Part shown: in pieces, positions 23,230 through 24,685 of the stretch
Position numbering within the stretch: position 1 is the stretch's first letter
Layout: the number at the start of each line of letters is the position of its first letter
Program-made: the position numbers and the translations under genes
Virus record (IMG/VR): IMGVR_UViG_3300025809_002164
Span: 1 to 64,000 of that record
Origin: a virus
Length of the DNA: 64,000 nucleotides
Strand: one strand, 5' to 3'
Notes under the pieces: generated by a model
The model's input: only the letters and a program-made list of their open reading frames with translations
Told to the model about the DNA's origin: nothing
Databases searched by the model: none

Positions 23230-24033
23230 TTATTCAGGTCTTTTACCTAAAGGTTTTCCGTCCTGACCAATTTGGCCATCTCTAATTTTTGTAGCAGAAA
23301 CTTCTTGCAACTCCTTACTTAACTCCAACTGTTCAATATTATAGCCAACTCCCCTGCCGTAAAATACATCCATGATATTTGGCAGTTCAATGACTTTAAT
23401 TTTATTTCCAAATTCTATGCAAGCAGAGTGTATTTCTTTTTTTACTTTTTCAAAATTGTATGGATTGCTATCATTAATTCCGCCAACATCTCTTAATGCT
23501 ATGCAGCATTGACCTGTCCTTTTTACGGCCTCAGCAACAAGGCTCTTGTGCCCGATGTGAAATGGTTGATACCTGCCTATAAGTAAGGCGGTTGGGGCTT
23601 GATTATCCCACTCTTCAGTTTGGCCTAATTTTTCAACAACTTTATCGACCCACTCTTCTGCAGTTCCTTCGATAAGTCTTAAGTCGTAATTCAGGGGTTT
23701 TTCAAACATTTTATTTGTATCTTCGTATCTACCTTCTTGAATTCTATCAACCCATATTGTGAAATCTGCATTAAATGCCTGCCGAGTTTCTTGGGTTGGG
23801 CATACAAAATCTGCAATCACATAACTCCCGCCCATTTTGGCCCAATCGCATAATTTGCCCATTCTGGTGGCGTGAGATAGTCGATCTTGAGGAGAGAACC
23901 CAAGCTCTGAGTATATATCCTGCCTGACCGCGTCAGCATTAAACCAAGCTGCTTTTAGTTTTTTAACTAAAATTTCAGCCAACGTAGTTTTGCCAGATCC
24001 TGGCAGCCCCATAATAAGAATCTTTCTTTTCAT
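23230..24033 (-). CDS. cysC: Adenylylsulfate (APS) kinase fused to a HIGH-motif nucleotidyltransferase domain
   Basis: N-terminal GLPGSGKTT, NAD.VR, LGFS.QDR, DFVCP, FEKP; C-terminal GRYQPFHIGH...VSATKIR. Confidence 0.85.
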   Translation of the reverse strand: MKRKILIMGLPGSGKTTLAEILVKKLKAAWFNADAVRQDIYSELGFSPQDRLSHATRMGKLCDWAKMGGSYVIADFVCPTQETRQAFNADFTIWVDRIQEGRYEDTNKMFEKPLNYDLRLIEGTAEEWVDKVVEKLGQTEEWDNQAPTALLIGRYQPFHIGHKSLVAEAVKRTGQCCIALRDVGGINDSNPYNFEKVKKEIHSACIEFGNKIKVIELPNIMDVFYGRGVGYNIEQLELSKELQEVSATKIRDGQIGQDGKPLGKRPE

Positions 24034-24142
24034 ATGTAATTTACATACACATTAAAAAGTTGTTTTTATTATTTTATTTAGTATTTATTCCAGCAGCAAG
24101 CAAGATAAAGAACTGCCAATGTTCCTATTAAGATTAATGTAG

Positions 24143-24685
24143 TCATTTTTGCTGAATATTTAGAAATTGATTGATTGATTCGTTGATAATGTCCCACGCC
24201 GTTTCTTTTTCGTGCCAATCAAAAACCTTAACCTCTTTATTGTTTAAATCTTTATAATGAAGAAAGAAATTTTTTGATATGTCTAAAAATAAAGGGTCGA
24301 TATCTTTTAACGATTTAAGCTTGCGGATGTGGGAGGTAGGTACCCCTAAAACTTTGTAGTCTTTATGCATACCTACAGTAGAACCTTCGTCCTCCATATC
24401 CAGAACGCCTACAACTAAACACTCAACCACAGTACCTCTGTCTATTGGAGCTTGATTGTAAACTAATATATCAAGAGGGTCTCCATCATCAGCATATGTA
24501 GAAGGAATAAACCCATAATTAGCTGGGTACACCATTGCACTAGTCAAGCATCTGTCGTAGCGAAAAAAACCTCTAGAATCATACTCGTACTTAACGCTTG
24601 TACCTTTAGGGATTTCAACTACAGCCTCAACAGTGTATGGAGACTTTTTGTGAGGAGCTATTTCGTATAAACTTTTAATTTGCAT
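24143..24685 (-). CDS. ppa: Inorganic pyrophosphatase (family I)
   Basis: EIPKG..KYE, YPANYGFIP.T..DDGDPLDILV, F..YKDL. Confidence 0.95.
   Translation of the reverse strand: MQIKSLYEIAPHKKSPYTVEAVVEIPKGTSVKYEYDSRGFFRYDRCLTSAMVYPANYGFIPSTYADDGDPLDILVYNQAPIDRGTVVECLVVGVLDMEDEGSTVGMHKDYKVLGVPTSHIRKLKSLKDIDPLFLDISKNFFLHYKDLNNKEVKVFDWHEKETAWDIINESINQFLNIQQK

What the first reader, a model, noticed from the sequence alone, without database searches (positions are those of the whole stretch)
23230..24685. APS kinase + mini HIGH nucleotidyltransferase + adjacent pyrophosphatase: possible minimal PAPS synthase
Seen: a 267 aa fusion of an APS kinase domain with a ~120 aa domain carrying GRYQPFHIGH and VSATKIR, immediately downstream of a family I PPase. 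No cysD/cysN/sat gene is in the window. Known: Sat-type ATP sulfurylases belong to the HxGH nucleotidyltransferase superfamily, their reaction is unfavourable and is pulled by PPi hydrolysis, and animal PAPSS has the same kinase-then-sulfurylase order. Inference: the small domain, which would normally be labelled cytidyltransferase-like, may be an unrecognised compact ATP sulfurylase. That would give sulfate to APS to PAPS from two short genes.
Basis: partly seen in the sequence, partly recalled or inferred. Interest (0 to 1): 0.82.

Follow-up and report, generated by a model that had tools for sequence, protein, structure and literature searches.

The report
Phage mini PAPS synthase candidate
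A large uncultured marine phage with about ten sulfate-adding enzymes encodes a 267-residue protein joining a trimmed APS kinase to a very small NMNAT-like enzyme that most likely activates sulfate; that would make it an unrecognised third kind of ATP sulfurylase, also common in SAR11 bacteria, but no assay exists yet.

Summary
ORF 23230-24033 (-) encodes 267 aa: a lid-less APS kinase followed by a ~115-aa HIGH-motif nucleotidyltransferase (NT). It lies 109 nt downstream of a family I pyrophosphatase. The 146-kb phage record has no Sat or CysD.

- The NT family descends from NadM/archaeal NMNAT. It has lost about 25 internal and 30 C-terminal residues, including the segment where NMNATs bind NMN. 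It has gained an invariant YGRxVGY motif.
- It is fused or adjacent to an APS-kinase domain in 150 of 158 viral loci, in both gene orders. One form is fused to a full canonical CysC.
- Sulfotransferases of several Pfam families lie beside it in 63 of 158 viral loci, in bacterial operons and in cultured Casjensviridae phages.
- The window itself holds about ten sulfotransferase ORFs.
- 11 of 14 carrier genomes lack Sat and CysD. 95 of 151 sampled Pelagibacteraceae genomes carry the NT; 6 carry Sat.

The PPase adjacency is not conserved (1 locus). Best reading, at 0.65: a compact PAPS synthase whose NT half is a new ATP sulfurylase family.

This scan has reached the same reading for this family on other DNA several times. 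Public annotation calls the protein 'cytidyltransferase' or 'kinase'.

The parts
24143..24685 (-). Family I inorganic pyrophosphatase (180 aa), first gene of the minus-strand block
   Evidence: PF00719 E 2.9e-46, 157.5 bits; NCBIfam NF002317 E 1.8e-43, below its cut-off. A homologue adjacent to the fusion was found in only one other viral locus, L087.
23230..24033 (-). 267-aa fusion protein: APS kinase followed by a mini HIGH nucleotidyltransferase (candidate PAPS synthase)
   Evidence: AlphaFold2 mean pLDDT is 90.6.
23614..24033 (-). APS-kinase domain (residues 1-140). It keeps the Walker A motif, NADxxR, LGFSxxDR and FVCP, and lacks about 15-20 residues of the lid.
   Evidence: PF01583 E 2.3e-12. 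Best PDB sequence match is APS kinase 7yq0, E 2.3e-6. All Foldseek rows shown down to rank 41 are APS kinases or APS-kinase domains, E about 1e-8. Motifs and the lid gap are visible in the alignment.
23986..24009 (-). Walker A P-loop GLPGSGKT (residues 9-16)
   Evidence: Sequence. G9, G14 and K15 are invariant in 39 fusions.
23233..23613 (-). Mini nucleotidyltransferase domain (residues 141-267); candidate ATP sulfurylase
   Evidence: Family profile against PDB: NMNAT 1f9a E 3.2e-12, NadM 2qjt E 1e-11. Domain model pLDDT 90.1. VIA-align: NMNAT Z 9.9, PPAT 9.8, NadM 9.7, Sat 1v47 Z 8.3. The family has 1,047 representative clusters.
23548..23577 (-). HIGH-type motif GRYQPFHIGH (residues 153-162)
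   Evidence: G, R, Q, P, H, G and H are invariant in the domain-only alignment; all of these except P157 (nearly invariant) are also invariant in the 39 fusions. The motif is the same as in archaeal and NadM NMNAT, GRFQPFHxGH (alignments).
23341..23361 (-). Family-specific motif YGRGVGY (residues 225-231)
   Evidence: G, R, V and G are invariant and both Y nearly invariant. In the two NadM-like NMNATs aligned only the V-G pair recurs; the YGR part has no counterpart there. A role in binding sulfate is inferred.
23281..23301 (-). VSATKIR (residues 245-251), the ISxTxxR phosphate-binding motif of the superfamily
   Evidence: S and R are invariant. It aligns with SGTEIR of NMNAT 1f9a. Sat carries ISGTxxR.
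21151..22173 (-). 340-aa divergent sulfotransferase-like ORF
   Evidence: Local Sulfotransfer_2-type profile E 9e-12. Pfam PF03567 only E 0.03. PHROG 3347 E 2e-4. 20 of 30 Atlas neighbours carry PF03567. Motifs HIAKNAGT and RNPYDRALS are present.
17462..18046 (-). Sulfotransferase (PF03567)
   Evidence: E 7.2e-11; local profile E 7.5e-39.
16807..17457 (-). Sulfotransferase (PF03567, N-terminal part)
   Evidence: E 3.5e-7; local profile E 9e-28.
14812..15426 (-). Sulfotransferase (PF03567)
   Evidence: E 3.5e-23. Motifs HIPKCGGT and RNPFDRLVS are present.
14251..14808 (-). Sulfotransferase (PF03567)
   Evidence: E 1.9e-16.
12795..13391 (-). Sulfotransferase (PF03567)
   Evidence: E 1.1e-17.
11506..12096 (-). 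Sulfotransferase (PF03567)
   Evidence: E 7.9e-19.
9468..10046 (-). Sulfotransferase (PF03567)
   Evidence: E 9.1e-22. Motifs HIPKTGGT and RNPWDRSLS are present.
8157..8756 (+). Sulfotransferase-family ORF on the opposite strand
   Evidence: Local profile E 1.6e-38. Motifs HIPKTGGT and RNPWTRDLS are present. Not scanned against Pfam.
54730..55380 (-). Further sulfotransferase-family ORF in a second glycan island
   Evidence: Local profile E 9.5e-15. RDPFARVVS is present.
18046..20350 (-). Glycan-tailoring genes between the sulfotransferases: methyltransferase (18046-18606), GT61 (18618-19706) and FkbM methyltransferase (19703-20350)
   Evidence: PF13578 E 2e-21; PF04577 E 1.6e-10; PF05050 E 3.6e-16.

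Best explanation
The 267-residue protein is a compact bifunctional PAPS synthase.

Inferred step: its C-terminal ~115-residue HIGH-motif adenylyltransferase transfers AMP from ATP to sulfate, giving APS and pyrophosphate. This domain is a cut-down descendant of NadM/archaeal NMNAT that has lost the NMN pocket.

Step shown by homology and fold, with the substrate inferred: the N-terminal lid-less APS kinase phosphorylates the 3'-OH of APS to give PAPS.

In this phage the pyrophosphatase encoded just upstream removes PPi and helps pull the unfavourable first step. In other lineages the host enzyme presumably does this.

PAPS then feeds the roughly ten phage sulfotransferases. Together with glycosyltransferases and methyltransferases in the same minus-strand block, these probably build a sulfated glycan during infection.

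The same kinase/NT pair, split or fused, is a chromosomal gene of most sampled Pelagibacteraceae and of SAR86. There it would be the otherwise missing enzyme that makes APS, or, next to AprBA, consumes it.
For: (1) The kinase half is an APS kinase.
- PF01583 E 2.3e-12.
- The best PDB sequence matches are all APS kinases.
- The model has pLDDT 90.6, and the Foldseek rows shown down to rank 41 are all APS kinases.
- DxxR, LGFSxxDR and F(V/I)xP are kept, and the lid is shortened.

(2) The NT half keeps every nucleotide-binding motif of the superfamily as an invariant residue, so it is probably catalytic. It lacks profile-to-structure segments of NMNAT: 15 profile positions stand against 40 residues of 1f9a, and there is no C-terminal helical part. 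The same gaps appear against two bacterial NadM-like proteins.

(3) The link to APS kinase is close to obligate.
- Of 158 viral loci, 108 are fused and 42 are split but adjacent.
- Of 150 cluster representatives, 61 are kinase-NT and 3 are NT-kinase.
- P0215 joins the NT to a full canonical CysC (PF01583 E 5.7e-63, positions 2-151 of 152). This form occurs in 37 marine metagenome loci.
- On a quick tree the reversed fusions fall in at least two separate well-supported clades.

(4) The unit is linked to sulfotransferases.
- A PF00685/PF13469-type sulfotransferase occurs in 44 viral loci, always upstream on the same strand and mostly 1-3 genes away.
- A PF03567 type occurs in 19 other loci, 10 of them immediately downstream. 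The union is 63 of 158 loci.
- Two bacterial operons carry it: L051 and L075.
- Phage Bhz60 has the order Sulfotransfer_4, NADAR, fusion.
- The window has 7 Pfam-significant and 3 further sulfotransferase ORFs; nine of the ten carry at least one of the two PAPS-binding motifs searched for.

(5) A known sulfurylase is usually absent.
- None in the phage.
- None within 10 kb in about 275 loci.
- 11 of 14 carrier genomes lack both Sat and CysD.
- In Pelagibacteraceae the NT is in 95 of 151 genomes and Sat in 6 of 151.
- A preprint reports no assimilatory sulfate reduction in 135 complete Pelagibacter genomes, although their hypervariable region carries sulfotransferases (bioRxiv 10.64898/2026.04.03.716430).

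(6) In one Pelagibacteraceae genome the fusion lies four genes upstream of aprA on the same strand.
Against: - There is no biochemical evidence at all.
- By sequence and fold the nearest relatives are NMNATs and PPATs. Sat scores lower (VIA Z 8.3 against 9.9; hhalign probability 43% over the HxGH-to-beta3 region only). No Sat-specific motif (QxRNP, GRDHAG) is present.
- The model shows only three clear beta strands, and residues 78-99 are modelled as coil. The domain may need a partner or an oligomer to be active.
- 3 of 14 carrier genomes also have Sat or CysD. The trend against the class baseline (at least 219 of 401 with a CysD-like gene) is weak and confounded by relatedness and by incomplete MAGs.
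- 95 of 158 viral loci show no sulfotransferase within 10 kb.
- In most SAR11 genomes the pair sits among one-carbon and betaine catabolism genes, not among sulfur genes.
- The host of this phage is not known.
- The kinase has lost its lid and has Asn for the first Asp of DGD and Cys for the Ser of FISP.
Confidence: 0.65

Rival explanations
1. Only the kinase half serves sulfation. APS comes from the host (Sat, CysDN, or AprBA acting on sulfite). The small domain is an adenylyltransferase for another small phosphorylated acceptor, for example a residual NMN/NaMN adenylyltransferase that supports NAD supply.
For: The nearest relatives by sequence and structure are NadM and archaeal NMNAT. In Casjensviridae the fusion overlaps a NADAR gene, and NADAR genes neighbour NadM and NadV in some phages (PMC9503650). 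Some carrier genomes have their own Sat or CysD.
Against: The segments that NMNATs use around the nicotinamide nucleotide are deleted. The phage has no NadV. This reading does not explain why such a domain would be fused to APS kinase in both orders, including to a canonical CysC. In Bhz60 a sulfotransferase gene also lies directly upstream of the NADAR gene.
Confidence: 0.15
2. The pair builds a PAPS-like 3'-phosphonucleotide donor that carries a group other than sulfate (phosphoramidate or phosphonate). This would resemble the Campylobacter MeOPN pathway, where an APS-kinase homologue (Cj1415) phosphorylates a cytidine diphosphoramidate. The sulfotransferase-fold enzymes would then transfer that group.
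For: Such cassettes exist. A Pelagibacter contig carries an APS-kinase homologue together with a PPDK-like kinase, a GATase and an NTP_transferase (L084). Earlier notes of this scan describe similar blocks. APS-kinase homologues are not all APS kinases.
Against: No PEP-utiliser domain (PF00391) was found in the phage. phmmer with the L084 PPDK-like, GATase and NTP_transferase proteins found one weak GATase-like hit (L045, E 5.5e-4) and nothing else in the phage ORFs or in about 275 kinase-NT loci. The conserved minimal unit is sulfotransferase, kinase and NT, so the acceptor must be a common metabolite. The MeOPN nucleotidyltransferase is of a different fold family (NTP_transferase). The window's sulfotransferases keep ordinary 5'-PSB and 3'-PB motifs.
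Confidence: 0.08
3. The fusion is a PPAT/dephospho-CoA-kinase-like or similar cofactor synthase. It would adenylylate phosphopantetheine or another cofactor precursor and then phosphorylate the 3'-OH, as JGI's automatic label 'phosphopantetheine adenylyltransferase' suggests.
For: The chemistry is analogous: adenylyl transfer followed by 3'-phosphorylation. PPATs are among the best structural matches (Z 9.8). JGI names are given.
Against: All five carrier genomes tested have their own CoaE. PPAT sequence matches are weak, E 0.002 or worse. This reading does not explain the sulfotransferase synteny or the fusion to a canonical CysC.
Confidence: 0.04
4. The small domain is a non-catalytic nucleotide-binding or scaffolding module that replaces the missing lid or regulates the kinase.
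For: The domain is very small and partly modelled as coil. The kinase lacks its lid. Fungal Sat carries a non-catalytic APS-kinase-like regulatory domain, which is a precedent for degenerate partners (general knowledge).
Against: All catalytic signature residues (HxGH, ISxTxxR) are invariant across more than 1,000 clusters. The domain also occurs as a separate gene next to the kinase.
Confidence: 0.05

Closest known systems
Metazoan bifunctional PAPS synthase PAPSS1/2 (PDB 1x6v, 1xjq)
   Same: One polypeptide with the APS kinase at the N-terminus and the proposed sulfate-activating nucleotidyltransferase at the C-terminus. The kinase domains superpose (Foldseek E about 1e-8).
   Different: PAPSS has about 620 residues, with a Sat-type sulfurylase domain of about 390 residues including a PUA-like part. 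Here the second domain has about 115 residues, has no PF01747 match, and descends from NMNAT.
Sat-type ATP sulfurylase (PF01747; e.g. Thermus 1v47, yeast 1j70)
   Same: Same HIGH nucleotidyltransferase superfamily. Both have an HxxH motif and an ISxTxxR motif. The structures are alignable (Z 8.3, 117 residues, rmsd 3.1). The proposed reaction is the same.
   Different: QxRNP and GRDHAG are absent. hhalign gives only 43% probability over 61 columns. The domain is half the size of the Sat catalytic domain and has no PUA-like domain.
NadM / archaeal NMN adenylyltransferase (PDB 1f9a, 2qjt, 1ej2)
   Same: Closest relatives by profile (E 3e-12) and by fold (Z 9.9). The GRFQPFHxGH and NPF motifs are nearly identical.
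   Different: About 25 internal and 30 C-terminal residues are missing. A family-specific invariant YGRxVGY is present. The family is separated from two NadM-like sequences by a branch with 97% support on a quick tree. Its context is APS kinase and sulfotransferases, not NadV or Nudix.
APS kinase CysC (PF01583; PDB 7yq0, 2ofx, 1m7g)
   Same: Fold, Walker A motif, DxxR, LGFSxxDR and F(I/V)xP motifs.
   Different: About 15-20 lid residues are deleted. There are Asp-to-Asn and Ser-to-Cys changes. The NCBIfam equivalog score is far below its cut-off (43.9 against 138.7).
NadR (NMNAT fused to a P-loop ribosylnicotinamide kinase)
   Same: A HIGH adenylyltransferase fused to a small P-loop kinase that acts in the same pathway.
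   Different: In NadR the kinase acts before the transferase and is not of the APS-kinase family. The domain order is opposite. NadR matches are weak (E 7e-4).
Campylobacter MeOPN donor pathway (Cj1415-Cj1418)
   Same: An APS-kinase homologue and a nucleotidyltransferase make a 3'-phosphorylated nucleotide donor.
   Different: That pathway needs a glutamine kinase and an amidohydrolase and uses a different nucleotidyltransferase fold. phmmer with the L084 homologues found none in the phage and only one weak GATase-like hit (L045, E 5.5e-4) across the kinase-NT loci.

Membership tests
APS kinase (CysC, PF01583 / TIGR00455) | Pfam family score above the gathering threshold | tested here: met
   47.6 bits against 21.1, but only profile positions 5-92 of 152 are covered.
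APS kinase (CysC, PF01583 / TIGR00455) | NCBIfam equivalog cut-off (full-length, isofunctional) | tested here: not met
   TIGR00455 scores 43.9 bits against a cut-off of 138.7.
APS kinase (CysC, PF01583 / TIGR00455) | APS-kinase fold | tested here: met
   All Foldseek rows shown down to rank 41 are APS kinases, with target-normalised TM-scores of 0.55-0.77 for the single-domain chains.
APS kinase (CysC, PF01583 / TIGR00455) | Substrate motifs DGDxxR, LGFSxxDR, FISP and the mobile lid (KGLYKKAR) | tested here: inconclusive
   NADAVR, LGFSPQDR and FVCP are present; the lid segment is deleted.
Sat-type ATP sulfurylase (PF01747) | Match to the family profile | tested here: not met
   No PF01747 hit for the protein. 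hhalign of the family against a Sat alignment gives probability 43%.
Sat-type ATP sulfurylase (PF01747) | Motifs QxRNPxHxxH and GRDHAG | tested here: not met
   The protein has GRYQPFHIGH and YGRGVGY instead. The Sat consensus is given.
Sat-type ATP sulfurylase (PF01747) | ATP + sulfate -> APS + PPi activity | not testable with these tools
   This needs an enzyme assay.
NadM / archaeal NMNAT | GRFQPFHxGH and SxTxxR motifs | tested here: met
   Alignments.
NadM / archaeal NMNAT | Full-length domain (about 170 aa) reaching the curated cut-offs | tested here: not met
   NF003786 scores 32.6 against 397, and TIGR01527 scores 20.3 against 181. About 25 internal and about 30 C-terminal residues are missing.
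Bifunctional PAPS synthase (PAPSS type) | APS kinase and sulfurylase on one chain, kinase first | tested here: inconclusive
   The domain order fits. The second domain is not Sat-type, and its activity is inferred.
Family I inorganic pyrophosphatase (ORF 24143-24685) | PF00719 above threshold over the whole domain | tested here: met
   157.5 bits against 23.5, profile positions 1-151 of 153.
PAPS-dependent sulfotransferases (window ORFs) | PF03567 above threshold, plus 5'-PSB and 3'-PB motifs | tested here: met
   Seven ORFs at E 3.5e-7 to 3.5e-23. HIPKxGGT and/or RNPxxRxxS are present. The motif definitions come from my own knowledge.

The most novel reading that the evidence does not exclude
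The ~115-residue domain is a third, independently evolved family of ATP sulfurylase, and the smallest known. It would have been derived from NMNAT by loss of the NMN pocket. It would be the sulfate-activating (or, next to AprBA, the APS-consuming) enzyme of most SAR11, of SAR86, and of many marine and freshwater phages. That would mean organisms now annotated as unable to activate sulfate can in fact make PAPS.
Probability: 0.6. Interest if true: 0.85.

Novelty: new variant of a known kind. Interest (0 to 1): 0.78.

Why it matters
Only two kinds of ATP sulfurylase are known: Sat and CysDN. A third, 115-residue kind would be a textbook case of one enzyme family taking over another's reaction.

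It would change sulfur annotation for some of the most abundant organisms in the sea. The SAR11 version alone forms a 90%-identity cluster of 11,617 sequences labelled 'cytidyltransferase'. It is present in 95 of 151 sampled Pelagibacteraceae genomes. These organisms are reported to lack sulfate assimilation yet carry sulfotransferases.

It would also explain how phages with many sulfotransferases obtain their donor, and it points to phage-directed sulfation of glycans as a widespread process.

A 267-residue, single-chain PAPS synthase would also be useful for PAPS regeneration in enzymatic sulfation.

Tried and rejected
The context of P0215 was obtained with the search for related loci instead.
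- The promoter and terminator scan of 22900-25300 gave fewer promoter-like sites and about as many terminator-like sites as shuffled sequence, so nothing can be said about co-transcription.
- Conservation of the window's neighbours: the PPase, DUF6557 and the 70-aa ORF recur in only one other viral locus, and the window's 340-aa sulfotransferase-like ORF in none. PPase is therefore not part of the conserved unit.
- Foldseek on the NT-only model gave only weak matches (E about 2e-3, first 77 residues). VIA-align was needed.
- hhalign against Sat was not convincing.
- A phyletic anticorrelation with Sat and CysD is only a weak trend. 4 of 11 carriers in the class sample have a canonical enzyme (one of them, G245, is an unpublished genome), against at least 55% overall. 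Within Pelagibacteraceae, 5 of the 6 genomes with Sat also carry the NT.
- I first took the canonical APS-kinase gene on Pelagibacter contig L084 as evidence that SAR11 needs APS. Its neighbours (a PPDK-like kinase, a GATase and an NTP_transferase) make it a MeOPN-like phosphoramidate cassette, so I dropped it.
- NAD reading: the phage has no NadV.
- The phage has no CysQ.
- My local sulfotransferase profiles and a PDB sequence search did not recognise Bhz60_00032. Pfam Sulfotransfer_4 did.
- The weak PF01747 hit of P0123 rests on a protein with an internal duplication and was not used.
- The literature searches found no paper in the held library that describes this family as a sulfurylase.
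Full report
**What is there**

The window is the first 64 kb of a 146,036-bp IMG/VR virus record that CheckV rates as complete. It has about 34% G+C, and its replication genes are only distantly like those of cultured phages. ORF 23230-24033 on the minus strand encodes 267 residues.

- Residues 5-87 match Pfam APS_kinase (E 2.3e-12, above threshold, but only the first 92 of 152 profile positions).
- Residues 151-175 just reach the Cytidylyltransferase-like threshold.
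- NCBIfam ranks APS kinases first for the N-terminal half and NadM-type NMN adenylyltransferases first for the C-terminal half. All are far below the curated cut-offs.
- ORF 24143-24685, 109 nt upstream on the same strand, is a family I pyrophosphatase (E 2.9e-46).

The record holds no Sat (PF01747) and no CysD/CysH family member.

**The kinase half**

Sequence search of the PDB returns APS kinases only as significant N-terminal matches (best 7yq0, E 2.3e-6). An AlphaFold2 model built on 39 fusions has mean pLDDT 90.6. All Foldseek matches shown down to rank 41 are APS kinases or the APS-kinase domains of PAPS synthases.

I aligned it with canonical kinase domains. It keeps the Walker A loop, the DxxR, LGFSxxDR and F(V/I)xP motifs, and an aromatic residue where canonical enzymes have the FTG phenylalanine. 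It lacks about 15-20 residues of the lid. It is an APS-kinase homologue with a reduced lid. That its substrate is APS is inferred.

**The small domain**

A search of 1.84 billion cluster representatives found 1,047 clusters at E <= 0.001. In alignments the invariant residues are G-R-x-Q-P-x-H-x-G-H, an N-P pair, Y-G-R-x-V-G-Y, and the S and R of ISATxxR.

A profile of the family finds archaeal and NadM NMNATs first (1f9a E 3.2e-12, 2qjt E 1e-11). PPATs follow at E 0.002 or worse, and Sat is not found at all.

The match has two pieces. Profile positions 10-75 align with residues 4-69 of 1f9a, and positions 91-117 with residues 110-135. So 15 positions stand against 40 residues, and the last 33 residues of the NMNAT have no counterpart. 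The same gaps appear against two bacterial NadM-like proteins. From my own knowledge of the archaeal NMNAT structures, the missing internal segment carries the residues that pack against the nicotinamide ring. I could not check this on coordinates.

The domain-only model has pLDDT 90.1. It aligns best with NMNAT (Z 9.9), PPAT (9.8) and NadM (9.7). Thermus ATP sulfurylase is seventh (Z 8.3, 117 residues). A profile-profile comparison with a Sat alignment gives 43% probability over the HxGH-to-beta3 region only.

The domain is therefore a cut-down NMNAT relative in the same superfamily as Sat. It is not a member of the Sat family.

**Fusion and gene order**

- Of the 150 best representatives, 61 are kinase-NT fusions, 3 are NT-kinase fusions, and the rest are NT alone, many of them fragments or split genes.
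- P0215 (311 aa) joins the NT to a complete, canonical CysC (PF01583 E 5.7e-63 over positions 2-151 of 152). This form occurs in 37 marine metagenome loci with cellular neighbours: a POT peptide transporter and a propionyl-CoA carboxylase beta subunit.
- Among 158 viral loci, 108 carry the fusion and 42 carry kinase and NT as adjacent genes.
- On a quick, unfinished tree, the family is separated from the two NadM-like sequences by a branch with 97% support. The reversed fusions fall in at least two separate well-supported clades.

Repeated joining to APS kinase in either order is what one expects of two consecutive enzymes.

**Link to sulfotransferases**

- In 44 viral loci a sulfotransferase of the PF00685/PF13469 type lies upstream on the same strand, mostly one to three genes away. 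The order is typically sulfotransferase, kinase, NT, then 2OG-Fe(II) oxygenases.
- In 19 other loci a PF03567 sulfotransferase is present, 10 times immediately downstream.
- The union is 63 of 158 loci, spread over 26 of 73 NT clusters at 90% identity and 6 of 14 at 70%.
- An alphaproteobacterial MAG has the order fusion, GT2, GT4, Sulfotransfer_3, GT9. A Flavobacteriaceae MAG has kinase, NT, a pyruvate-kinase-like barrel, Sulfotransfer_3.
- In the cultured Stenotrophomonas phage Bhz60 the order is a Sulfotransfer_4 protein (26.2 bits against a cut-off of 22.8), a NADAR protein, then the fusion. Phage DLP6 has a PF03567 gene elsewhere in its genome.
- Six of the 37 P0215-type loci have proteins with sulfotransferase domains next to the fusion.
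- In the window itself, seven ORFs downstream on the same strand pass Pfam Sulfotransfer_2 (E 3.5e-7 to 3.5e-23). Three more match a local profile of that family. Nine of the ten carry at least one of the HIPKxGGT and RNPxxRxxS motifs searched for. They are interleaved with Fringe-like and GT61 glycosyltransferases and two methyltransferases.

This phage therefore has a large demand for PAPS.

**Where APS could come from**

- No Sat homologue lies within 10 kb of the unit in about 275 loci.
- The family is chromosomal in Pelagibacteraceae, SAR86, several soil Alphaproteobacteria and a Flavobacteriaceae MAG. In Pelagibacter HIMB1495 a 136-aa kinase gene overlaps a 124-aa NT gene. NCBI calls these 'AAA family ATPase' and 'cytidyltransferase'.
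- Of 14 carrier genomes tested, 11 have neither Sat nor CysD. One has Sat, one has CysD, and one has a broken CysD-like gene. All five tested have CoaE.
- In a sample of 401 genomes of the class, at least 219 have a CysD-like gene and 45 have Sat. The deficit among carriers is a weak trend, confounded by relatedness and by MAG incompleteness.
- In 151 Pelagibacteraceae genomes the NT is present in 95 and Sat in 6, five of which also have the NT.
- A preprint on 135 complete Pelagibacter genomes reports three things: assimilatory sulfate reduction is absent from all of them, AprAB is conserved, and the hypervariable region carries sulfotransferases.
- Following a lead from earlier notes of this scan, I found that in genome G411 the fusion lies four genes upstream of aprA on the same strand. 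In four other genomes the two are far apart or on different contigs.

Two unpublished genomes were in the samples. G245 is a carrier with CysD and is left out of the 14. G551 is one of the 95.

**Rivals**

- *NAD-related role.* This is suggested by ancestry and by the NADAR neighbour in Casjensviridae. Against it stand the deleted NMNAT segments, the absence of NadV and the fusion to CysC.
- *A PAPS-like donor for phosphoramidate or phosphonate.* This is a real possibility for APS-kinase homologues in general. A Pelagibacter contig carries such a cassette, which I had first misread as a sign that APS is needed. No PEP-utiliser domain is in the phage, and phmmer with that cassette's proteins found only one weak GATase-like hit (L045, E 5.5e-4) across the phage and the kinase-NT loci.
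- *A CoA-type role.* This has no support beyond fold similarity.
- *A non-catalytic role.* This fits poorly with invariant catalytic motifs and with the stand-alone genes.

**Verdict**

The most likely reading (0.65) is a compact PAPS synthase whose NT half activates sulfate. That the unit supplies sulfotransferases with their donor is well supported (about 0.85). That the NT itself is the sulfurylase is inference from fusion, synteny, loss of the NMN site and the absence of alternatives.

The pyrophosphatase fits the thermodynamics but is specific to this lineage.

No paper in the held library describes the family in this way. This scan, however, has reached the same reading for relatives on other DNA several times. 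Those notes are not independent evidence.

Noticed in passing
L084:399-9050 (Pelagibacter HIMB1495, 23-kb contig C2): A surface-glycan cluster carries a 364-aa protein with a full APS-kinase domain plus an unknown 215-aa C-terminal part. Next to it lie a formyltransferase, a PPDK_N/PEP-utiliser protein, a Peptidase_C26/GATase, an NTP_transferase, a deacetylase and a GT4. The set resembles the Campylobacter MeOPN phosphoramidate-donor genes Cj1415-Cj1418.
   Followed up: partly
window 8157-22173 and 53169-55380: About ten sulfotransferase-family ORFs of roughly 190 aa are interleaved with Fringe-like (15386-16051) and GT61 glycosyltransferases and three methyltransferases (18046-18606, 19703-20350, 53169-53822). 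This is an unusually large phage glycan-sulfation block.
   Followed up: partly
L097, L103, L106, L107 and about 40 other viral loci: One to three 2OG-Fe(II) oxygenase genes (PF13640, PF13759) recur directly beside the sulfotransferase-kinase-NT array. Their role is unknown.
   Followed up: no
L075:834-3847 (Flavobacteriaceae MAG): A 335-aa pyruvate-kinase-barrel protein sits between the NT gene and a Sulfotransfer_3 gene.
   Followed up: no
L001:4978-6741 (Stenotrophomonas phage Bhz60; likewise Xylella phages Sano, Salvo and Bacata): The order Sulfotransfer_4-like gene, NADAR gene, kinase-NT fusion is conserved, and the genes overlap. Why an ADP-ribose-processing NADAR domain sits inside a sulfation unit is unexplained.
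   Followed up: partly
P0132 (395 aa, metagenome protein): A DUF4118 membrane domain is fused in front of the kinase-NT unit.
   Followed up: no
P0134, P0145, P0123: NT domains are joined to fragments of chorismate synthase or dehydroquinate synthase, or carry an internal duplication. These are probably assembly or gene-calling artefacts.
   Followed up: no
L340:3471-9112 (Pelagibacteraceae genome G411): The kinase-NT fusion, four small ORFs (241, 128, 156 and 263 aa), a 156-aa ORF and aprA (618 aa) all lie on one strand. This may be an operon linking the unit to APS reductase.
   Followed up: partly
window 24691-25119 and 25171-25980: A DUF6557 protein (E 1.8e-22) and a 269-aa protein of PHROG 8198 (unknown function) lie directly upstream of the pyrophosphatase.
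   Followed up: no
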